Below, in pieces: positions 30,752 through 54,440 of a stretch of DNA of 64,000 nucleotides. Below the pieces are notes generated by a model. It saw only the letters and a list, made by a program, of their open reading frames with translations. It did not search any database and was not told the DNA's origin. Every line of letters begins with the position of its first letter. Position 1 is the stretch's first letter. The DNA comes from Trypanosoma brucei. Lineage: Eukaryota. The DNA lies in NCBI GenBank assembly GCA_000002445.1, contig CP000068.1, forward strand, positions 1,120,001 to 1,184,000, in the 5' to 3' direction. The translations under genes and the position numbers were made by a program.

Positions 30752-33700
30752 ATGCCACAGACTGTTAGCAGCCGGATTGCAGAATGTTGCACTGCTGCCG
30801 ATAGCGATGGCGGGAGCGCGCAGTTATGCGTTGTGAGTATTGGCTTCGATATTGAGTGCATAACAGCCAATATTGTGCGCCGTGTGGTGGAAGCTTGCAA
30901 CCTACCGTCACCCAATGCATGTGTTTCATGTGTTGTTCTTCCTGACGGTACGGGGGATAGCGTCCTTCTACGAGTGGCAAGCACACTCACTCGCATTCTT
31001 TCTAATAATGATAGTACTGTTCGTAATGATAACTCGGTGGCAGTGGTGAATGTACACGCCGTGTTAGAGGGAACCATGCCGCGGCAACGTTGCACTTACT
31101 ACCAGAGTGGAGGTATTGTGGTGTTATGCAGCCGAGTATTGTGCGCTGATTTGCTGCATCGCCGCGTTGCGCGTGAGTTGATTGGGTGCGTTGTGGTGCT
31201 GTTGCGGAGGCAGCGGGTGGATGGCATCGCTCATACAGTGGGTTTTTGTGCCGAAATCCTTCTTCGAGGTGGAGGACCCCTCCTCCTTCCGACACACCGA
31301 AAGCATCCACCCTTCGTCCTTCTTTCTGATGATCCCTTTTTTGTGCGCTACGCCATTCAGCATCCGCGGGTTCGGCAGGAGCCCTTTCTAGTTCAGGTAC
31401 GCGTAGATAATGTGCTGCTGTTTCCACGCTTTCGCCTGGACATCATGCGACACTTTGAAAATGTGGCGTCTCAGCGACCACTAATAGTGGACCGCTTCAC
31501 CGTTAATATGGCTAGGACGACTTACATTCTTGATGACTTGCTCTGTAAGGTTATCATGGAGATTGTGACAGAACTTCATGAGGTGTGTAAACGTATGGGT
31601 CCTTCAGGCTGTTGCCGAAACCACAGCTGCTTTCCTAATTCTAATGACCAAGCACCCAGAAACGCGCATAAGAGAGGCGCGTCTAATACCCGTAGTGGTA
31701 TCGCTGACGGTGATGAACCGCACTCCCGACTGGACCCCTTATCGCAGCGTCAGAGGTTGGACCACTGTTCCGGAGGTCAACCCAACGGATCACCCCCCGG
31801 CTACAGCAGAAAACCGTGGGTGGTGTCTGCGAAGCGGGCTGTCATTAACTTTGCCGGTATTTTGTACGAGAACGCGATAAACATCAATGATCGAAGTTTG
31901 GATGATGATCTTCACTATGCATTAAGAACACATGACACAGGCTGGCCATACGGGAAACTGTGTGAAAGTCTTATCGACCTGAGAAAACTTCGGCGCATAG
32001 TGCGGTCCGGTTCTCCCTATGCGGCCGTGCTGGAGTTGGAAGAGCTACTGATGGAACGAACCCCTCGGTTTGCAGGTCCTAGTTTGAGAACAGGGTGGGC
32101 GACGGTTCAGCATCCGGATGCCCTTTGGACACTGTCTCAGCACTTTTCTTCCATTACGAAACTCTTCGTGTACCGTATAGGTGAGGTGAAGGAGGTGAGC
32201 AACACCACCCCACAATGTGGCGGTTGCACGTCTAGAACGTATATCAACGTGGACACTGCGACCCCAGCCAGTGTGGAGGATGAAGACTCCAGCAAGGTCA
32301 TTGTCATTGATGGTGATGATACCAACACCGACAGTGGCACTGACGATGATGATGATGACGACAACGATGATGTACTCTGTGTGTCAGAAGTTAGGCCCAA
32401 GCGCTTTCTTGTTCCCCGGGTTGACGAGGTGGATCCATGCATGGAGCTTACAAATCGGCTCACAATGAACTGGGGGAGAGATGCACATCGCAAACAAGTG
32501 ATTGGGGCATCTGCTTTGTCTTCAGACGATCCGCTGAAGGTAAAACCACGGGTTTTGATGGTTGTTGTGTTTGGTCGTATGGCTTTCCAGCGGTACTCCT
32601 GTCGGCTTGCTTATTCACTGGCCGACTTCCAGGCGTTGGACTTGGATTGTTTTGTGACGATGTACCAAGGAAGGCACGGTGCAAAACAGCAGCGGTACAC
32701 ACAGAATCCAACACCAGAGGCTTCCGATGCGGCGAAGCTGCGTACATGGTTTTTTCATCACAAAGTAGAAAGTGTGGATGATGATGTCGAGCACAAAGCA
32801 GGTGAGGGTGCCGACGACGATACCGAGAAGCAGGGTGGCTTGGATAATTCCACTACTTTCTCAAAAGACCCCAGCTTCCTTTTTTCAGATAAATGTAGTG
32901 TCTTGGGAGGGCCTCGCGGGAGTGACAACGTCGGTTTGAGCACATCCACAGATGGTACATCGCATTTAAATGAAAGTGGTCGCAACTGCGGCCATAACGG
33001 CGTATCCTTGCATCGCTTGATTATGAAACAAGGCCAATCACTGTCGTCCATGCATCGCTCACAAGGAGGTTTGCGGAATGGGAGCGATGGACTAACGGAC
33101 GCCGTAACAGCTTCGGCGGCGCCTGGATCGAGCACTTGCATCTTGAAGTTTGACTATGCTCGGGACAGTGTTGCACGGCTGACTTTCCATTCGTGTGAAG
33201 GTGACTCTTCACCATCGGCACTGCCACTGCACGTGGCTGTGGTGGATGGGAACAAATTGTGTGTGTCAAGTCTCGTTGAGTTCATAAAGGGGACACACAG
33301 TGCACTCACTCCTGATAGCACCGATGACGACGGGGCGCCTGCTGATTCATTGAGGGTAGTCAGGATTATTGTCGTTGAGCAGCAGCTGCGTTTCATGCGT
33401 ATGCTTGAGATGGCACAAGATGTGTTATCACCTCAACATTTGAAAAATCTTCGCGTTCAGGTTTTGGTGGAGCGATCGCCTGCGTCATCGTCTGCACCTT
33501 CATCGCAAACTGGCGGCGGTACTCTTCCTGAGGATCCTGTGGTGGCTGAGGAGCAAGAAGCTTTTGCCGCGCTCGCGCATGCGAAGGCAACCCTTCCGGC
33601 AACGCTAATCGCTGATCGAAATGCCGTTCGTTTAGTGGAGGAGCGTCTCGATTCTGCCGTACTCGACGAGGGGCGAGTCCGCAGGGGGCGCCGCCCTTCC

Positions 33701-34480
33701 CGGAATGGTTTGACTTTGCTCGTTGAAGATGAAAATACCAACGGTATTTCAGCAAAGGGTGGCAGTGGAGGAGCTCCCCTTGTTGTGTTTGATGAGCGTG
33801 AATTTCGGTCTAGACTGCCTTATGAACTGTACTGCCGTGGAATTGACTTAGTCCCACTAACTCTTTTGACCGGAGACTATGTTCTTTCTCCAACTTACGC
33901 GCTTGAGCGCAAGAGTTTGCTAGACTTCATTCACTCACTTCACACTGGACGTGTTAATTCCCAGCTTTCACGTCTTTCCCGGTCTTATGATCACCCTATG
34001 CTACTTATTGAGTTTGACCGCAGCACTCCCTTCCGACTCTCCTTTGGACTCGCTGGCAGTGTGGGAGAACATAGTGAGACCGGTTTGTTTTCTCGAATCG
34101 CTCGGATCTTCACTTCCTTCCCGCGGGTACACGTAATCTGGACTCGTGATGCAACACAGTCCGCAAGTTTCATTCATTCTATGAAACGCACATGCGCTAG
34201 TGAGTCGATTGATCCGAGTGCCCCATATTTGACTTGCGCAACTGTTGATTACTATTGCCCAGCGGGGGCAAAGGAATCTTCGCATTACGCCACTCGCGTG
34301 CTTTCCTGCTTTCCGGGGGTTACACCAAAAAATTTGCAGCGTGTCATGGCACTTTGTGGTTCGCTAGCCGGCTTGGGAACCGTTGAAGAAGAGGCCCTTG
34401 CAGGTGTAATGGGGAGCGCTGCTGCCAGGGAACTTTATGCCTTTATACATGGGGAATCTGTGCCACCTACTCAGACATAA
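30752..34480 (+). CDS. ERCC4: DNA repair endonuclease XPF/ERCC4 (Rad1 family)
   Basis: Nuclease domain VVFDEREFRSRLPYELYCRGIDLVPLTLLTGDYVLSPTYALERKSLLDFIHSL carries the GDXnERKX3D signature. C-terminal tandem HhH LQRVMALCGSLAGLGTVEEEALAGVMGS..ARELYAFIHG. The N-terminal helicase-like region has YYQSGGIVVLCSRVLCADLL, matching XPF YTQGGVIFATSRILVVDFL. Confidence 0.85.
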   Translation: MPQTVSSRIAECCTAADSDGGSAQLCVVSIGFDIECITANIVRRVVEACNLPSPNACVSCVVLPDGTGDSVLLRVASTLTRILSNNDSTVRNDNSVAVVNVHAVLEGTMPRQRCTYYQSGGIVVLCSRVLCADLLHRRVARELIGCVVVLLRRQRVDGIAHTVGFCAEILLRGGGPLLLPTHRKHPPFVLLSDDPFFVRYAIQHPRVRQEPFLVQVRVDNVLLFPRFRLDIMRHFENVASQRPLIVDRFTVNMARTTYILDDLLCKVIMEIVTELHEVCKRMGPSGCCRNHSCFPNSNDQAPRNAHKRGASNTRSGIADGDEPHSRLDPLSQRQRLDHCSGGQPNGSPPGYSRKPWVVSAKRAVINFAGILYENAININDRSLDDDLHYALRTHDTGWPYGKLCESLIDLRKLRRIVRSGSPYAAVLELEELLMERTPRFAGPSLRTGWATVQHPDALWTLSQHFSSITKLFVYRIGEVKEVSNTTPQCGGCTSRTYINVDTATPASVEDEDSSKVIVIDGDDTNTDSGTDDDDDDDNDDVLCVSEVRPKRFLVPRVDEVDPCMELTNRLTMNWGRDAHRKQVIGASALSSDDPLKVKPRVLMVVVFGRMAFQRYSCRLAYSLADFQALDLDCFVTMYQGRHGAKQQRYTQNPTPEASDAAKLRTWFFHHKVESVDDDVEHKAGEGADDDTEKQGGLDNSTTFSKDPSFLFSDKCSVLGGPRGSDNVGLSTSTDGTSHLNESGRNCGHNGVSLHRLIMKQGQSLSSMHRSQGGLRNGSDGLTDAVTASAAPGSSTCILKFDYARDSVARLTFHSCEGDSSPSALPLHVAVVDGNKLCVSSLVEFIKGTHSALTPDSTDDDGAPADSLRVVRIIVVEQQLRFMRMLEMAQDVLSPQHLKNLRVQVLVERSPASSSAPSSQTGGGTLPEDPVVAEEQEAFAALAHAKATLPATLIADRNAVRLVEERLDSAVLDEGRVRRGRRPSRNGLTLLVEDENTNGISAKGGSGGAPLVVFDEREFRSRLPYELYCRGIDLVPLTLLTGDYVLSPTYALERKSLLDFIHSLHTGRVNSQLSRLSRSYDHPMLLIEFDRSTPFRLSFGLAGSVGEHSETGLFSRIARIFTSFPRVHVIWTRDATQSASFIHSMKRTCASESIDPSAPYLTCATVDYYCPAGAKESSHYATRVLSCFPGVTPKNLQRVMALCGSLAGLGTVEEEALAGVMGSAAARELYAFIHGESVPPTQT

Positions 34481-48253: not shown

Positions 48254-49816
48254 ATGCCAAGTTCGTCGTTGTCGAGTCCCCATCCTCTCGTTACTGCAGC
48301 AATTCTTCTTGAAACGTCTCTGGGAGAACTTGTAGTTGATTTGTATGGCGCAGATTGTCCCGTAGCCACGGCGGAGCTCGTGAACTTGTGCCGCTGCAAG
48401 TACTTCAACGGCTGCATAGCTACCGAAGTAGTACCAGATAATGTCATGATATTGGCCCACCCAGTTGAGGAATTACGGCGGCAGACATTTGCTTCGCTTC
48501 TTGAAGCGAGTGGTCAATGTCATCAACTAGGGGGCGATACGGCATCAGATGGGCGTGCGGTGAAACAATTAATATATAATGAATGGAAACGGATGCGAAG
48601 GCACACCGCACAGTTAAGGCGCAACAGTGGTGCTAGCGGAAAAGCTGAAGCGGGCCGTTTGGAGTTTGTCCCCCAGTCAGCCTCGAATGCCGTTGGGGCG
48701 ATACGCCGTAGTGGACTTTTATTACTGGAGGTTCCAAAAGTGGACGGTGGAGGCAGTAATGATGAAGTTTCTCCAAAGATGCAACTACTTATTACCCTCA
48801 GCAACCGTCACCAAGACTATTTCGAAGATAACTTTATGGTGTTAGGTGAAGTGCGTGAAGGAAATAATGTCGTGGAGAAGATGCGTGTAGCACCACACAG
48901 ACGGTTGACATCTGTGTCCGGAATCACGACCCGGCCGTCTCGACTTATACGAATTAGGCACATGACCGTCTTGCCCACGGCTGGGACTGATGCTTTTGCT
49001 GATATCTCGCACCGGGACAGGAGGAAGACAATGGAAGAAAATAATCTCTCTTCCCGTCTGGCACAGGTTGGTTGCTTTCGTCATTGGGCAACGCTGGGGG
49101 CAGTGCAGGCAGCAAACAAAGGCCTCGTTTCGTTACTTAAAAGAGAAGCTTCCAAAAGCACTGCCCGTAAAGGTAGGAAGGGTTCCAGCGATGAAACGGA
49201 GTCATTCAGTGGGTGTGAGTTTCTTGTTATTCCCGAAGACTCTGCACAAGGGGGCGCCCGCAATTTTCCCAACCATGATACGAACAATGGGGATGATTAC
49301 GACATTTTGTCGGTGAAGTATAATTCACATTTTCATGGCGACTATCTTAGTTCTGACGATGATACTGACGGGGATGGCAATTTTGGGTCCCGTAAGGAGC
49401 GTGAGAAACGACAGCAGGAAAAAATGCGCCTCCATCAGGACAAGCTTAACGAAACTCGTGCACTCACGCTGAACCTACTTGATGGTATTGGGGATGCATC
49501 CGGTGAGCTGAAGCCGGAGGGAAACGTACTGTTTGTGTGCAGACTAAATCCACTAACAACGAGTGAAGGTTTGGAAATGTGTTTTTCTCAGTTTGGTAAG
49601 GTTAAGTCGGTGCAGGTGATACGGGACTCCAAGACGGGGGATTCATTATGCTATGGGTTCGTTGAATTTGCTGATGAAGAGACATGCTATAGAGCACATC
49701 AGAAGATGGACAACGCACTCATTGACGATCGGCGCATTCATGTGGATTTCTCTCAATCCGTTTCAAAACTATGGATGGAGAAGCAACGTGAATTGCGCAA
49801 GAGGGTGCGCCAATAA
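48254..49816 (+). CDS. Cyclophilin-type peptidyl-prolyl isomerase with C-terminal RRM (PPIL4-like)
   Basis: N-terminal ILLETSLGELVVDLYGADCPVATAELVNLCRCKYFNGC matches PPIL4 VLLETTLGDVVIDLY...CLNFLKLCKIKYYN. RRM NVLFVCRLNPLTTSEGLEMCFSQFGKVKSVQVIRDSKTGDSLCYGFVEFADEE has RNP2 and RNP1. Confidence 0.85.
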   Translation: MPSSSLSSPHPLVTAAILLETSLGELVVDLYGADCPVATAELVNLCRCKYFNGCIATEVVPDNVMILAHPVEELRRQTFASLLEASGQCHQLGGDTASDGRAVKQLIYNEWKRMRRHTAQLRRNSGASGKAEAGRLEFVPQSASNAVGAIRRSGLLLLEVPKVDGGGSNDEVSPKMQLLITLSNRHQDYFEDNFMVLGEVREGNNVVEKMRVAPHRRLTSVSGITTRPSRLIRIRHMTVLPTAGTDAFADISHRDRRKTMEENNLSSRLAQVGCFRHWATLGAVQAANKGLVSLLKREASKSTARKGRKGSSDETESFSGCEFLVIPEDSAQGGARNFPNHDTNNGDDYDILSVKYNSHFHGDYLSSDDDTDGDGNFGSRKEREKRQQEKMRLHQDKLNETRALTLNLLDGIGDASGELKPEGNVLFVCRLNPLTTSEGLEMCFSQFGKVKSVQVIRDSKTGDSLCYGFVEFADEETCYRAHQKMDNALIDDRRIHVDFSQSVSKLWMEKQRELRKRVRQ

Positions 49817-50070: not shown

Positions 50071-51555
50071 ATGCACAGAGCCGCGTATGCACTGGGGGAC
50101 TCATGTGCCAAAGAAACGGCTGCGGGTGCGGCAGGTGGTACCACCGCATTCAGCCGCAAGTCCCAGCGACGCCAAGTTTTAAAGGCACCTGCATTCGTAA
50201 GCAGCGATAACATCAGAACTAGCACATCAATCAGCCTTAGAGACGAAGCAGTGCGTCGCATGGAATCGTTTGTGTTGAACGTTATTTATGAAATTGTGAC
50301 TTATCAAGGGATGAAATATGAGAGACAGCGAAAGGGAGATGCGCAACATCCAGCTGATGCCGCACTCCGATCCGAAGATGGGGACGATGCATGCGAGTTG
50401 AGATCCCCGGAGCGACAACCATCCGGTCCCAACCTCCTGACGGTATCGTCACAGCAACAACAATTGCCCCGACTGCGGCTATTACGTCAACAGCTATTGG
50501 TTCTTCGTCACCTCTATGCTAATGTTCAACTTGGTGTTATATGCACGCAGCGGGACGTTTATTACCGGCTGGTTCGGTTTTTTCCGGATCAGGGCTGTGT
50601 CAACCGTGTCATTCAACAACTAGTCCAACAACTCGGTTTGCCTCGACAGCTGTTGGGTGTTGTTCCGGGAACACGCGGTTGTGTAGGCGGTTCATTAAGC
50701 TTCCACGGAATTGATTTACGGCGGTACTCGTCTGAGGGTCTTCCATTACCTGTTCTACGGGAGGAACTAAGTGTTGTGTGGCGCCCGAAACATGAATGTG
50801 AGTCAATACCCGTCCATTCCCCTGATGATATTGAAGGATTTGAACTTCACAACGACATACGCTACATTATTGTTGTGGAAAAGCATGCAGTGTTTTTTCG
50901 GCTGATGGAAGAAAAAATATTTGATCGGGTTTCGTGCGTTTTATTAACCTCCCATGGGTTTCCCACCGCTGCAGCTTTGACGCTGCTTTCAAATTTGCAT
51001 CGGACGGCAACAGATGTTGGTGTACCTGTCGTCGCACTGGTTGACTATAACCCCAGTGGGCTTTCAATTCTCCAACAGTACAAACATGACACGGGACGGA
51101 TTCAAGAAAACCGTTATGCTTCCGTTCACTCACTACGATGGTTAGGTTTGCGTGGATGCCACGTTTTGCATGATGGGAGTACTGAAGTAGCGGATTCTCA
51201 ATGTTTGTCATCAGGAATTCATGCGGGTGATGCGGTGGGTCATATACCGCGTGTTGCTCGCCTACCATTCCAGCCGTTTACTCAACGCGATGATGTTATG
51301 ATTTCAAACATTATTGCAAGATGGGCCGCTATTTGGAAGGGATGTGACGATGGCGAAGATGCGCAGCGTGTGTGGTTTAGAGAAGCCCAAATAATGCAGA
51401 CGTCACGTGTTAAGGTGGAGTTGGAGGCGATCTATGAGTGTAGTGCAAGTGGCCCATACGAACCTACGCAAAAAGGATTTTCCTCACAATCTTTACATAA
51501 AGGCAGCTTCTCTACGTGGGTGTGTAGGGGATTATTTAGGCGGGACTACATTTAG
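50071..51555 (+). CDS. SPO11: SPO11 / topoisomerase VI subunit A homologue (meiotic DSB-forming transesterase)
   Basis: 5Y-CAP catalytic Tyr motif ICTQRDVYYR (nt 50551-50565). TOPRIM Glu in IIVVEKHAVFFRLME. TOPRIM acidic motif region VVALVDYNPSGLSILQQYK (nt 51043-51051 read D-Y-N). An alternative in-frame start lies at 50260 (MESFVLNVIYEIV). Confidence 0.85.
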   Translation: MHRAAYALGDSCAKETAAGAAGGTTAFSRKSQRRQVLKAPAFVSSDNIRTSTSISLRDEAVRRMESFVLNVIYEIVTYQGMKYERQRKGDAQHPADAALRSEDGDDACELRSPERQPSGPNLLTVSSQQQQLPRLRLLRQQLLVLRHLYANVQLGVICTQRDVYYRLVRFFPDQGCVNRVIQQLVQQLGLPRQLLGVVPGTRGCVGGSLSFHGIDLRRYSSEGLPLPVLREELSVVWRPKHECESIPVHSPDDIEGFELHNDIRYIIVVEKHAVFFRLMEEKIFDRVSCVLLTSHGFPTAAALTLLSNLHRTATDVGVPVVALVDYNPSGLSILQQYKHDTGRIQENRYASVHSLRWLGLRGCHVLHDGSTEVADSQCLSSGIHAGDAVGHIPRVARLPFQPFTQRDDVMISNIIARWAAIWKGCDDGEDAQRVWFREAQIMQTSRVKVELEAIYECSASGPYEPTQKGFSSQSLHKGSFSTWVCRGLFRRDYI

Positions 51556-51573
51556 CTCTGAGGAAATAAAATA

Positions 51574-51598
51574 ATATATATATATATATATATATATA
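51574..51598. repeat. (TA)n microsatellite about 20 nt after the SPO11 stop
   Basis: aatatatatatatatatatatatatatatac. Confidence 0.9.
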
Positions 51599-53294
51599 CG
51601 CATCACCTCTTGGACACGGTGGAAGCTAAATGTTTTTCCCCTCCCACTCCTCCTTGCTGAGAATGCTTCTGTTGGAACCGTGTGGGCCATAGGGAACGGC
51701 CTGTGACGCTTTGCGTCCACCTCTTTTTTTTAAAAAAAAACATAGCTTGTATTGTTGTTCTCGTTTATTTATTTATTGTGTTTTATTTCGTTTGCTGTTC
51801 CTGCATGTGTGCAGTTTGTTCGTTACGTGTTTGGTTGCTTTATGACTCTCTAATATAGTTTTTTTGCGCATGAATATATTTTATTGTTCTTCTTTAGTAA
51901 GTAAATGCATATTCATATGCGTGTAAATAATTCACATGATTTATCTGACGTGTTGGTTTCAAGGCATTGTTGTCCCTTTCCGCCGTCGGTTCGCTCAATC
52001 TGTGCGACTCTTGTTCTGGTTATTATTTTTATTGTTATTATTATTATTAATATTATTTTTTACGGTGGTGTGAATATTTTTCCTTATACTCGATACTTCG
52101 TTGCCCTCATGTGATGAGTTGTTGGCAGTGCTGCATCGGAAATTATTTTTATAGTGAGCATGTTCTCATTCCTTATGGGCTTTCATAGTGATTAAAAAAA
52201 TAAAACGACAACTTAATGCCAGGAAGCGGCTGCATGTGATGTCAAAGGACTTCAAAGTTTTTGATGGAACTACGGAAATAACTTTAAAACAGAACATATA
52301 AAATAATTATATTGTCACTGGTTGGCTGAAATCGGAGTAGTGTAACCGTCATTTTGCCTTCGAACCCTTTCGTTACTTTATCAACCTCCCAATTCAGTAT
52401 ACGAAATTGATGTTTTTTATTGCAACACATGACGTGATGTGTGATATGCACGGTGACAAACTTGCCGCGAAGTTAAACTTTGGCCATTTCACATGCACAG
52501 CCTGCGATTGCCTTGGAATTGTGATTGATACATATATATATATATATTTATTTACTTATGTATGTGGAAGGCATCGTGTTGTTTCGCTGGAGTGTTGTGG
52601 TTTTTGGTGCAGGTTGTGTTTCTCCTCCTCGGCACTAAAGTCGCCACCTTTTTTTTCTTGTGTTTCTCTGCTTTATTTTTTTTTGTATGAAGATATGGAG
52701 CTAAAACCTCTTAAGGAGTTACGATTATCACAGGGACAGTGTAAAATGAAGGTGTCGTTTGCTTTCCATTTATTAAACAGAAGAAATTATGTTTCCCGCC
52801 CCCTTTCACCCATATCATGGAGATACCGAATAATGAATATTTCTCATTGACAAACCAGTGTAGCTCATACAAACAAAAAAAAATGTGCCTTTCCTCAACA
52901 GACATTCGCGACTGAAATCACTAATGTACAATTTGTTTATCCTTTTACAATTAGCAGAACAGCAGAAGACTTACAATGGGAAAAAGAAGAGATTTAGAGA
53001 AAAAGTATATATATCACTTAGAGTTACACTGAGATTTTCTTGAAGGTGTTGCAACAATATTAGCACTAGGGACCAGTTAAAAGTTCCTTTCTCGTTGAAC
53101 CCTTTCGCTCTTAAATGCTAACATTATTATCTTCTCTCTTTTTTCTATTTTTTAAATTTTTGTTAGTTGCGTTGAGCTTAGTAGGAGTTCGTCGTTACAC
53201 GGAGAGACGTGCGTTGCCATTTTTGTTTTGAAGAAATATAATTATTAACAAAAAAAAACTCGGGCACCTTTTGAAACAAACATCCGTTGGTACA

Positions 53295-54440
53295 ATGAGA
53301 CGGTTTGCACCACACCACATGCTGGTTACACGGAGTTTATGGCACTCTGCTGTCTTTTTTCGAGGACGGAGAGAAATGTTAAAACCCCTGGCGATGTCAT
53401 CAGAAACTCCCGCATGTGCTGTTGAGGAAGTTGCAACACATCCTCAAGTTTCAATTAATGAAAGTATTTGCAACTCACTTGACAACCTGCTCGGTGAAAC
53501 CGCTTCCCAGCGTGCTGCGGTTACGAGGGTCGGATCTCTACCATCATACTACAAACCGATGAACCTTCGTGGTGTATTGTATGAAGGCGATGTGGCACAA
53601 CAACTTGCGAATGCAGCGGAGTTACGAGGTTTCCGATCGCCTGTTTGGGCTACAAATGCATCATATATACGAGGGGGTTACACGGTGCTGGAATGTGAGG
53701 TTGGGGTTGAAGTGAGCACCTCGATGTTTAACGTGGTTCTTTACAACCTGCAGCAAACGAACTCTCCGGAGGCTGATTCATGCGTTGCGCTTGCGTCGGT
53801 GAAGGCCATGCCACTCTGCGCAACGGGGCGACCCTTCTCTCGAAGACTGCGGCTGGTGCTTATGAGTCACCCCTTCTATACACGATTCAAGTCACAATAT
53901 TGGGTAACTGAAGAGGAAGCTGCAGCACTTGGAACAATGGTGATGACAAGTGAGCGGGGGCGTTGTGTTCCCGTGCCCTGTCCTCCTACAGTGACTGAAA
54001 TGTCTTCCTCCACAAGCCGTGATCCTCGTGTTGAGGACAGCGATACTCCTCCAGGGGAATCTGCTGTTCCTTTGATGTTGTATAATGCGGAGCAATTGGA
54101 GAACCCCAATGCAGCAAGCAGTGAGACTTGTCCTCGAGTTGAATGCGTAAATGCCAATGGGAGGCGTTATAGCACTCTCTTGACTATTCACATGCGGCGG
54201 TATTGCCAACTGCACCAGTTGTGCACAGATCCCTTTGCAACATTTGTCACATGTGCCCGTCTCCGCTCTCTTGGAGGTGATATTGTACCTGGTGCCAGTG
54301 TTCCTCTTACTTTGGTTGTGAGAGATGAATTATTGACACTTTATCATGTGGATCAAACAACGATATCTAACACGTTATTTCAGCATGCCTTGTCTGGCCA
54401 GCGGAAGTGTATGGACCGGGTTTCTGTGATTCAAGTTTAG
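53295..54440 (+). CDS. Hypothetical protein with mitochondrial-presequence-like N-terminus
   Basis: The ORF-track start at 53271 is TTG. The first ATG at 53295 gives MRRFAPHHMLVTRSLWHSAVFFRGRR, which is Arg-rich, amphipathic and lacks acidic residues. 381 aa. No recognisable domain. Confidence 0.45.
   Translation: MRRFAPHHMLVTRSLWHSAVFFRGRREMLKPLAMSSETPACAVEEVATHPQVSINESICNSLDNLLGETASQRAAVTRVGSLPSYYKPMNLRGVLYEGDVAQQLANAAELRGFRSPVWATNASYIRGGYTVLECEVGVEVSTSMFNVVLYNLQQTNSPEADSCVALASVKAMPLCATGRPFSRRLRLVLMSHPFYTRFKSQYWVTEEEAAALGTMVMTSERGRCVPVPCPPTVTEMSSSTSRDPRVEDSDTPPGESAVPLMLYNAEQLENPNAASSETCPRVECVNANGRRYSTLLTIHMRRYCQLHQLCTDPFATFVTCARLRSLGGDIVPGASVPLTLVVRDELLTLYHVDQTTISNTLFQHALSGQRKCMDRVSVIQV

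What the first reader, a model, noticed from the sequence alone, without database searches (positions are those of the whole stretch)
50071..51555. SPO11 homologue with the TOPRIM DxD motif reading D-Y-N
Assignment to the Spo11/Top6A family is well supported: catalytic Tyr motif RDVYY, the VEKhAvF TOPRIM glutamate, and overall colinearity. In the TOPRIM acidic motif, other Spo11/Top6A proteins have D-x-D-P-x-G (yeast FLTDADPYGI, mouse LVDADPHGI). This protein reads VALVDYNPSGL at nt 51043-51051, so the second Mg-coordinating Asp is Asn. If the alignment is correct, this would alter metal-dependent DNA cleavage chemistry in a meiosis gene of an organism whose meiosis is still poorly characterised. 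Alternatively, a nearby acidic residue may substitute. The same motif in orthologues would tell whether this is lineage-specific.
Basis: partly seen in the sequence, partly recalled or inferred. Interest (0 to 1): 0.55.

Follow-up and report, generated by a model that had tools for sequence, protein, structure and literature searches.

The report
Trypanosome SPO11 with normal SPO11-2-type D-x-N motif
The gene is the Trypanosoma brucei SPO11 meiotic DNA-breaking enzyme, and its Asp-to-Asn change in the metal-binding motif is real but is the usual, already described hallmark of the SPO11-2 branch of this family, at a position where yeast tolerates the same change.

Summary
ORF 50071-51555 (+) encodes a 494-aa Spo11/Top6A protein, and codons 51043-51051 read GAC TAT AAC (D325-Y326-N327). 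Four alignments to solved structures place N327 on the second Asp of the TOPRIM DxD motif.

It is not a sequencing error. N327 is invariant in all 19 kinetoplastid-type homologues, in seven T. brucei-group variants and in an independent T. b. gambiense assembly.

It is not kinetoplastid-specific. Among the 161 nearest family representatives, 128 read D-x-N. In a tree built without that column, they separate from all D-x-D sequences (animal, fungal, archaeal) and include plant and green-algal SPO11-2.

The literature already covers it. Allen et al. 2024 describe DxN as the hallmark of SPO11-2. Yu et al. 2024 report that the equivalent yeast residue (D290) binds only the non-catalytic metal B, and that D290N has little effect.

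The catalytic residues R161, Y165, E270 and D325 are intact, and no compensating acidic residue was found. The Leishmania orthologue is required in vivo through its catalytic Tyr.

Verdict: a real, ordinary member of a known variant, of low interest. Side observation: the T. b. gambiense DAL972 SPO11 carries a 1-nt frameshift.

The parts
50071..51555 (+). SPO11 coding sequence (494 aa plus stop), T. brucei Tb927.5.3760-type gene
   Evidence: ORF. Pfam PF04406 and PF21180. Cluster members are named 'meiotic recombination protein SPO11' from T. b. brucei TREU927, T. equiperdum and T. b. equiperdum. The gene ID is from PMC5601477.
50260..51555 (+). Shorter 431-aa model starting at Met64, as annotated for TREU927 (XP_845046.1)
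   Evidence: P0192 is 100% identical to window aa 64-494. Residues 40-63 are conserved among orthologues, and the Met64 position is V, I or L in T. grayi, Angomonas and others. The 494-aa start at 50071 is therefore better supported.
50488..50661 (+). 5Y-CAP / winged-helix region (aa 140-197) carrying the catalytic tyrosine
   Evidence: PF04406 TP6A_N at 3.3e-12. AF2 model pLDDT is 79-94 in this region.
50551..50565 (+). R161-D-V-Y-Y165 catalytic motif. Y165 (TAC 50563-50565) aligns with yeast Y135.
   Evidence: DNA read. Alignment to 8urq 'vRDifY'. R161 and Y165 are invariant in 163-165 sequences.
50863..51153 (+). TOPRIM domain (aa 265-361)
   Evidence: PF21180 at 9.4e-21. pLDDT 86-94. Foldseek hits to 1d3y at 6.8e-14 and 8urq at 1.2e-11.
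50878..50883 (+). TOPRIM glutamate E270 and K271 (V-E-K), the metal site A ligand
   Evidence: E270 and K271 are invariant in both the DxN and DxD clades.
51043..51051 (+). D325-Y326-N327 (GAC TAT AAC), the DxN form of the TOPRIM DxD motif. D325 corresponds to the site A/B ligand and N327 to the site B position.
   Evidence: The same codons occur in T. b. gambiense DAL972.

Best explanation
The ORF is the Trypanosoma brucei SPO11 gene. It belongs to the SPO11-2 lineage of the Spo11/Top6A (type IIB topoisomerase A-subunit) family.

D-Y-N-P is the ancestral, strictly conserved form of the TOPRIM acidic motif in that lineage (consensus D-[YWFC]-N-P-x-G). It is not a mutation particular to this organism.

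The residues needed for cleavage chemistry are intact: Arg161 and Tyr165 in the winged-helix domain, and Glu270 and Asp325 in TOPRIM. By homology with yeast E233 and D288, Glu270 and Asp325 hold the catalytic Mg2+ of site A.

Asn327 occupies the position of yeast D290, which ligates only the second, structural metal (site B).

The protein therefore most likely still makes meiotic double-strand breaks. It would act as a dimer, with itself or with the second kinetoplastid SPO11 paralogue, together with a TopoVIB-like subunit. Tyr165 of one subunit would attack DNA at the metal pocket of the other subunit. Site B would be neutral and probably weaker.

Shown here: identity, conservation, clade placement, and an intact catalytic set.

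Taken from the literature: the metal-site roles, tolerance of D290N in yeast, and the in vivo requirement for the Leishmania orthologue and its catalytic Tyr.

Inferred: retained activity in T. brucei, and the effect on site B.
For: - Family and fold.
- Identity with TREU927 SPO11.
- N327 is invariant in 19/19 homologues and in 128 of the 161 nearest representatives out of 1.84e9 proteins.
- In an NJ tree built without the motif column, the most recent common ancestor of the window protein and a plant DxN protein spans 79 taxa, all DxN, with no DxD anchor inside (139/200 bootstraps).
- One split separates all 128 DxN sequences from all 37 DxD sequences.
- The window protein has the DxN-clade state at every strongly discriminating column: Q160, L167, N178, Q182, G196 and an aromatic at 326.
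- Green algae, which are reported to have only SPO11-2 (PMC9665070), are DxN.
- Literature: DxN is 'always' found in plant SPO11-2 and sometimes in protist SPO11-2 (PMC11302465). Yeast D290 is a site B ligand only, D290N has little effect, and E233/D288 are essential (PMC11746154). D290A gives near-wild-type spore viability (PMC3728922).
- The L. tropica paralogue with catalytic Y160, which matches the Tyr position of the Leishmania orthologues P0026 and P0012, is required for hybrid formation in sand flies, and Y160F does not rescue (PMC13143177).
Against: - The tree is only neighbour-joining, with moderate bootstrap support (56-70%).
- The 161 sequences are those nearest to the query, so the sample is biased.
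- The SPO11-2 anchors are inferred from taxon plus the literature rule. The sources do not label them 'SPO11-2'.
- No biochemical data exist for any DxN-type SPO11.
- A YFP-tagged T. brucei SPO11 was reportedly not detected in any tsetse stage (Peacock 2011, as cited in PMC13143177).
- L. tropica spo11 nulls still form hybrids in vitro (PMC10630298).
- The Leishmania authors call the orthologue 'SPO11-1', which conflicts with my clade placement. My mapping rests on Tyr numbering and on which gene was studied first.
Confidence: 0.85

Rival explanations
1. The AAC codon is a sequencing or assembly error for GAC, and the protein really has a canonical DxD motif.
For: None found.
Against: N is invariant in 19 homologues from at least 10 named trypanosomatid species. 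It is also unchanged in 7 T. brucei-group variants from separate assemblies. The identical 30-nt stretch occurs in the DAL972 assembly.
Confidence: 0.01
2. The alignment is wrong. A different Asp/Glu pair forms the metal site, or a nearby acidic residue has taken over the role of the second Asp.
For: D407, E438 and E452 are invariant within the kinetoplastid set, so conserved acidic residues do exist elsewhere in the protein.
Against: Four pairwise alignments to solved structures and the Pfam model all place D325-x-N327-P328-x-G330 on D-x-D-P-x-G. D325, P328 and G330 are invariant across both clades. A column-by-column contrast found no position where the DxN clade gains an acidic residue relative to the DxD clade; it has instead lost several (167, 178, 182, 332).
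Confidence: 0.04
3. The DxN protein is a catalytically impaired or dead subunit (a pseudo-enzyme partner). It only scaffolds a DxD-type paralogue that does the cutting.
For: Kinetoplastids are reported to have two SPO11 paralogues (PMC13143177). In plants, DxN SPO11-2 works with DxD SPO11-1 (PMC11302465). Mutating the second Asp in E. coli topo I reduces DNA binding (as cited).
Against: R161, Y165, E270 and D325 are all invariant. The Leishmania orthologue needs its catalytic Tyr in vivo. Both Arabidopsis tyrosines are required (Hartung 2007, as cited). Mamiellales algae have only a DxN SPO11-2. Yeast D290N is nearly wild type.
Confidence: 0.08
4. DxN is a kinetoplastid-specific innovation that changes the cleavage chemistry of an unusual meiosis.
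For: It is conserved throughout trypanosomatids.
Against: The same substitution is present in 128 of the 161 nearest representatives, including plant and green-algal proteins. These form one clade. The feature was described earlier for plants and protists.
Confidence: 0.02

Closest known systems
SPO11-2 (plants such as Arabidopsis AtSPO11-2, green algae, various protists)
   Same: D-x-N-P-x-G in place of D-x-D-P-x-G. T-Q-R-[DE]-x-[YF]-Y around the catalytic Tyr. Shared signature residues at 160, 167, 178, 182 and 196. It clusters with them in the NJ tree.
   Different: The kinetoplastid protein has long low-complexity insertions (aa 92-130, 241-252, 368-395; pLDDT below 50) and a longer N-terminus. 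It is labelled simply 'SPO11', or 'SPO11-1' in Leishmania, in the kinetoplastid literature. Whether it pairs with a DxD partner, as in plants, is unknown.
S. cerevisiae Spo11 (PDB 8urq/8uru) and mouse SPO11 (SPO11-1 type)
   Same: The same two-domain architecture, catalytic Arg/Tyr, and TOPRIM Glu plus first Asp. Foldseek E 1.2e-11; phmmer 1.1e-7.
   Different: They have D-A-D (yeast D288/D290). The yeast D290N mutant, which mimics the trypanosome state, has little effect on recombination.
Archaeal topoisomerase VI A subunit (1d3y, 2zbk, 2q2e, 9o0g)
   Same: Best structural and sequence match among solved structures. Same metal-binding triad positions.
   Different: Top6A has D-x-D, forms stable dimers with an ATPase B subunit, and religates DNA. 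In the tree, the archaeal sequences lie on the DxD side.
Leishmania tropica 'SPO11-1' (catalytic Y160; Catta-Preta et al. 2026)
   Same: Probable orthologue. Leishmania homologues of the window protein have the catalytic Tyr at 159/160 and D-Y-N-P. It is genetically required for hybridisation in sand flies, and the requirement depends on the Tyr.
   Different: It is about 650 aa because of extra insertions. The name 'SPO11-1' does not match the SPO11-2-type signature found here.

Membership tests
Spo11/Top6A (type IIB topoisomerase A subunit) | Winged-helix/5Y-CAP domain with an invariant Arg and the catalytic Tyr (R-x-x-x-Y) | tested here: met
   PF04406 at 3.3e-12. R161 and Y165 align to yeast R131/Y135 and are invariant in 165 sequences.
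Spo11/Top6A (type IIB topoisomerase A subunit) | TOPRIM domain with the conserved Glu (metal site A ligand) | tested here: met
   PF21180 at 9.4e-21. E270 lies in V-E-K and is invariant.
Spo11/Top6A (type IIB topoisomerase A subunit) | First Asp of the D-x-D-P-x-G motif | tested here: met
   D325, P328 and G330 are invariant.
Spo11/Top6A (type IIB topoisomerase A subunit) | Second Asp of the D-x-D motif (metal site B ligand) | tested here: not met
   The residue is N327. [quoted passage not shown] It is therefore not decisive for membership.
Spo11/Top6A (type IIB topoisomerase A subunit) | Top6A-like three-dimensional fold | tested here: met
   AF2 core pLDDT is 86-94. The top ten Foldseek hits are all Top6A/Spo11, with E from 6.8e-14 to 1.7e-8.
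Spo11/Top6A (type IIB topoisomerase A subunit) | Mg2+-dependent DNA cleavage with a covalent 5'-phosphotyrosyl link | not testable with these tools
   This needs biochemistry. The only indirect evidence is the Tyr-dependent genetics of the Leishmania orthologue.
SPO11-2 clade | D-x-N in place of D-x-D (published hallmark of plant SPO11-2, absent from SPO11-1 and SPO11-3) | tested here: met
   N327. The published rule is in PMC11302465.
SPO11-2 clade | Phylogenetic grouping with plant and green-algal SPO11-2, apart from SPO11-1 and Top6A | tested here: met
   NJ tree built without the motif column. The clade spanning the window protein and the plant DxN protein excludes all DxD anchors in 139/200 bootstraps. 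A single split separates 128 DxN from 37 DxD sequences. Support is moderate, and no maximum-likelihood tree was possible.
SPO11-2 clade | Clade signature residues other than the Asn | tested here: met
   Q160, L167, N178, Q182, G196 and aromatic 326 all show the DxN-clade state. The DxD clade has K, D, D, D/E, N and A at these positions.
SPO11-2 clade | Works as a heterodimer with a SPO11-1 partner (plant paradigm) | not testable with these tools
   The second kinetoplastid paralogue could not be retrieved. Leishmania genetics shows that both paralogues are needed.
SPO11-1 clade (animals, fungi, plant SPO11-1) | Canonical D-x-D and the T-K-R-D motif before the catalytic Tyr | tested here: not met
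   The window protein has D-Y-N and T-Q-R-D and falls on the other side of the DxN/DxD split.

The most novel reading that the evidence does not exclude
DxN may be a functional adaptation of the SPO11-2 lineage rather than a neutral quirk. Replacing the site B carboxylate with an amide could weaken or retune the structural metal. That would make one or both half-sites of the SPO11 dimer cut asymmetrically or religate poorly.

Kinetoplastids would then be a natural test case for a break-forming machine in which the best-known SPO11 subunit (and possibly both paralogues) lacks the canonical site B ligand.

My data show absolute conservation of Asn (128/128, never Asp, Ser or Ala). That pattern argues for selection on the amide itself rather than mere tolerance. 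Its function is not addressed by anything I could run.
Probability: 0.2. Interest if true: 0.45.

Novelty: new member of a known kind. Interest (0 to 1): 0.2.

Why it matters
For the finding as posed, it matters little. The gene is the annotated T. brucei SPO11. The substitution is the published hallmark of SPO11-2. The same change in yeast is nearly silent, so it does not suggest that trypanosome meiosis uses unusual cleavage chemistry.

Two modest points may be useful to specialists:
1. The kinetoplastid gene known as SPO11, and called 'SPO11-1' in the 2026 Leishmania study, carries the sequence signature of the SPO11-2 lineage. The paralogue names in kinetoplastids may therefore not reflect orthology with plant SPO11-1 and SPO11-2.
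2. The Asn is conserved without exception across the clade, and nobody has yet explained that biochemically.

Tried and rejected
- **Second kinetoplastid paralogue.** I looked for the equivalent of L. tropica 'SPO11-2' (catalytic Y100) to see whether it is DxD or DxN. Short DxN proteins with the Tyr at 95-101 (P0015, P0028, P0029, P0033) looked promising. They are unnamed metagenome or Logan sequences whose nearest named relatives are green algae. I dropped them as candidates.
- **Profile search.** A profile search with a mixed 38-sequence alignment only re-found the orthologues.
- **Malik 2007 and Peacock 2011.** Neither paper is held, so I could not read how Malik et al. classified the kinetoplastid gene.
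- **Supplement of PMC13143177.** The primer table is not held.
- **Side-chain geometry.** The structure tools return no coordinates, so I could not measure which side chains face the metal site. I relied on sequence and structure alignments plus the published yeast and archaeal structures.
- **Maximum-likelihood tree.** No ML program is installed, so I used NJ with bootstraps.
- **Compensating acidic residue.** Tested and rejected.
- **Sequencing error.** Tested and rejected.

Full report
**1. Observation.**
The window holds an ORF at 50071..51555 on the + strand, encoding 494 aa. Reading the DNA directly gives:
- CGG GAC GTT TAT TAC (R161-D-V-Y-Y165) at 50551-50565;
- GAA AAG (E270-K271, inside IIVVEKHAVFF) at 50878-50883;
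- GAC TAT AAC (D325-Y326-N327, inside VALVDYNPSGL) at 51043-51051.

Pfam finds the two domains that define the family: TP6A_N (PF04406, 3.3e-12, aa 140-197) and TOP6A-Spo11_Toprim (PF21180, 9.4e-21, aa 265-361).

phmmer against all PDB sequences returns only Top6A/Spo11 chains. In each of the four printed alignments, 'lvDyNPsg' lies on 'DgDPyg' or 'DaDPyg': M. jannaschii 1d3y, yeast Spo11 8urq, S. shibatae 2zbk and M. mazei 2q2e/9o0g.

An AlphaFold2 model built on 19 homologues has low confidence in four insertions but pLDDT 86-94 across the TOPRIM core. Its ten best Foldseek matches in the PDB are all Top6A/Spo11, with E from 6.8e-14 to 1.7e-8. The observation and the alignment are confirmed.

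**2. Identity of the gene.**
The 90%-identity cluster of this protein contains 'meiotic recombination protein SPO11' from T. b. brucei TREU927 (XP_845046.1, 431 aa), T. equiperdum and T. b. equiperdum (494 aa). The TREU927 protein is 100% identical to window aa 64-494, while the other strains differ at 2-8 positions. The window is therefore T. brucei TREU927-like DNA, and the gene is the one cited in the literature as Tb927.5.3760 (PMC5601477).

All 21 ORFs of at least 220 aa except one antisense ORF are on the + strand. This fits a trypanosomatid polycistronic unit. The neighbours are unrelated housekeeping genes.

**3. Error or real?**
A search of 5.8 billion proteins found 18 homologues. 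Named hits include T. congolense, T. vivax, T. grayi, T. rangeli, T. cruzi, T. melophagium, T. conorhini, Angomonas and Leishmania, alongside unnamed metagenome sequences. In the alignment, D325 and N327 are invariant in all 19 sequences as D-[YF]-N-P. Seven T. brucei-group variants keep both residues. The independently sequenced T. b. gambiense DAL972 chromosome has the identical 30-nt stretch, including AAC. A sequencing error is excluded.

**4. Lineage-specific or not?**
An exhaustive phmmer scan of 1.84 billion cluster representatives gave 1475 hits with E up to 1e-3. I aligned the best 150, together with the earlier hits, to the family HMM and read the motif column. The counts were D-x-N 128, D-x-D 31 and D-x-G 2.

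The DxN set is not confined to kinetoplastids:
- a 383-aa plant protein from Cuscuta, with motif L-V-D-W-N-P-A-G;
- green-algal proteins from Volvox, Chlamydomonas and Sanguina;
- many protist sequences.

The DxD set contains fungal (Baudoinia), oxymonad (Streblomastix), mollusc and archaeal Top6A sequences.

I built a neighbour-joining tree on 217 well-occupied core columns, with the motif column itself removed, and rooted it on archaeal Top6A. The clade spanning the window protein and the plant DxN protein has 79 members, all DxN. It excludes every DxD anchor in 139 of 200 bootstraps. One split of the tree separates all 128 DxN sequences (plus the two DxG) from all 37 DxD sequences.

A column-by-column contrast shows further clade signatures, and the window protein has the DxN-clade state at each one:

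| Position | DxN clade | DxD clade |
|---|---|---|
| 160 (just before the invariant Arg) | Q | K |
| 167 | L | D |
| 178 | N | D |
| 182 | Q | D/E |
| 196 | G | N |
| 326 | aromatic | A |

**5. What is known about this variant.**
Allen et al. [quoted passage not shown] They add that it is absent from other paralogues and that it was first noted for Arabidopsis SPO11-2. They also point out that Mamiellales algae have only a DxN SPO11-2, so one or two DxN pockets per complex are tolerated.

Brinkmeier et al. 2022 (PMC9665070) summarise Malik et al. 2007. SPO11-1 and SPO11-2 are ancient paralogues, green algae keep only SPO11-2, and some excavates keep both. My census, tree and signature residues therefore place the T. 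brucei gene in the SPO11-2 lineage, where DxN is the norm.

**6. Mechanistic meaning of D to N.**
Yu et al. 2024 (PMC11746154) solved the yeast Spo11 core complex.
- The single Mg2+ they see is held by D288 and D290 (site B, structural).
- In archaeal Top6A the ion sits between E197 and D249 (site A, catalytic).
- E233 and D288 are invariant and essential.
[quoted passage not shown] Independent data agree. Untagged spo11-D290A gives near-wild-type spore viability, with a 30-50% local drop in breaks (PMC3728922).

In the trypanosome protein the equivalents of the essential set (R161, Y165, E270, D325) are intact and invariant across 165 sequences. I tested this, and no column gains D or E in the DxN clade. 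The clade has instead lost acidic residues at 167, 178, 182 and 332.

The most likely picture is an active enzyme. Site A would be canonical, and site B would be lined by Asp325 plus an amide. The Asn is invariant in 128/128 sequences (never Asp, Ser or Ala). This suggests that the amide is selected for, but its role is unknown.

**7. Functional evidence from relatives.**
Catta-Preta et al. 2026 (PMC13143177) report two SPO11 paralogues in Leishmania. Deleting either one in both parents abolishes hybrid formation in sand flies, and Tyr-to-Phe alleles (SPO11-1 Y160F, SPO11-2 Y100F) do not rescue.

Leishmania orthologues of the window protein have the catalytic Tyr at 159/160 and the motif D-Y-N-P. 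They therefore correspond to the paper's 'SPO11-1'. A DxN-type protein is thus genetically required, and required through its catalytic Tyr.

Caveats:
- The same nulls still make hybrids in vitro (PMC10630298).
- A T. brucei SPO11 reporter was not detected in tsetse stages (cited).
- The label 'SPO11-1' conflicts with the SPO11-2-type signature I find.
- I could not retrieve the second paralogue to see whether it is DxD or DxN.

**8. Verdict.**
The substitution is neither an error nor a peculiarity of kinetoplastids. It is the already described hallmark of the SPO11-2 lineage, at a position shown in yeast to be non-essential and tolerant of exactly this change.

The finding is a new, or at least not explicitly discussed, member of a known variant, and interest is low. 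What remains open is why the Asn is so strictly conserved, and whether the kinetoplastid complex contains any canonical DxD pocket.

**9. Side observations.**
(a) The T. b. gambiense DAL972 SPO11 model (448 aa) differs from the window protein over aa 216-278. Its residues 216-232 are the +1-frame translation of the same DNA. The DAL972 locus shows a single-T deletion in GATTTAC (window T-run 50714-50716), which leads to a TAA 17 codons later. The gene model skips to Met279, which would remove the TOPRIM Glu. Weir et al. 2016 describe meiosis genes of this asexual lineage as intact. This is either an assembly error or an unreported inactivation.

(b) The TREU927 annotation starts at Met64. Conservation upstream of that position, together with non-Met residues at that position in other species, favours the 494-aa start at 50071.

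Noticed in passing
L001:2080-2390 (T. b. gambiense DAL972, FN554968.1:1114535-1119018), equivalent to window 50650-50960: The DAL972 SPO11 has a single-T deletion in GATTTAC (window T-run 50714-50716). This shifts the frame to a TAA 17 codons later. The deposited 448-aa model reads the shifted frame and then resumes at Met279, so it lacks the TOPRIM glutamate block. The rest of the gene is about 99% identical to the window. T. b. gambiense Group 1 is asexual, and Weir et al. 2016 state that its meiosis genes are intact. This is therefore either an assembly error or an unreported SPO11 inactivation.
   Followed up: partly
window 50071-50262: The TREU927 protein record (431 aa) starts at Met64 (50260). 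Residues 40-63 are conserved among trypanosomatid orthologues, and the Met64 position is V, I or L in T. grayi, Angomonas and others. The predicted N-terminal helix begins at aa 53 and, in Top6A/Spo11, contacts the B subunit. The upstream ATG at 50071, used in the T. equiperdum models, is therefore the better start.
   Followed up: partly
Leishmania orthologues P0012, P0026 versus PMC13143177: The Leishmania paralogue called 'SPO11-1' (catalytic Y160) appears to be the orthologue of this gene. It carries the D-Y-N-P motif and other signatures of the SPO11-2 lineage. The kinetoplastid paralogue names may therefore not match plant SPO11-1/SPO11-2 orthology. The other paralogue (Y100) could not be retrieved.
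   Followed up: partly
P0062 and P0130: Two family members inside the DxN clade read D-G-G-P and D-H-G-P, with Gly at the second position. They have no side chain at all at the site B position.
   Followed up: no
window 30752-34480 (+): A 1242-aa ORF with a C-terminal ERCC4 nuclease domain (9.2e-26), i.e. an XPF/Rad1/Mei9-type repair nuclease, lies in the same transcription unit about 16 kb upstream of SPO11. This is probably a coincidence of polycistronic gene order.
   Followed up: no
window 53271-54440 (+): An ORF with two Tc-38 (p38) domains and a weak match to the N-terminal domain of the anti-restriction factor ArdC (2e-7), about 1.7 kb downstream of SPO11.
   Followed up: no
window 51571-51600: A perfect (TA)n microsatellite of about 26 bases begins 16 nt after the SPO11 stop codon, in the presumed 3' UTR.
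   Followed up: no
window 48254-49816 (+): The upstream neighbour encodes a cyclophilin-type PPIase domain fused to an RRM (PPIL4-like). Its cyclophilin domain is interrupted by insertions: the match spans aa 18-239 for a 159-position profile.
   Followed up: no
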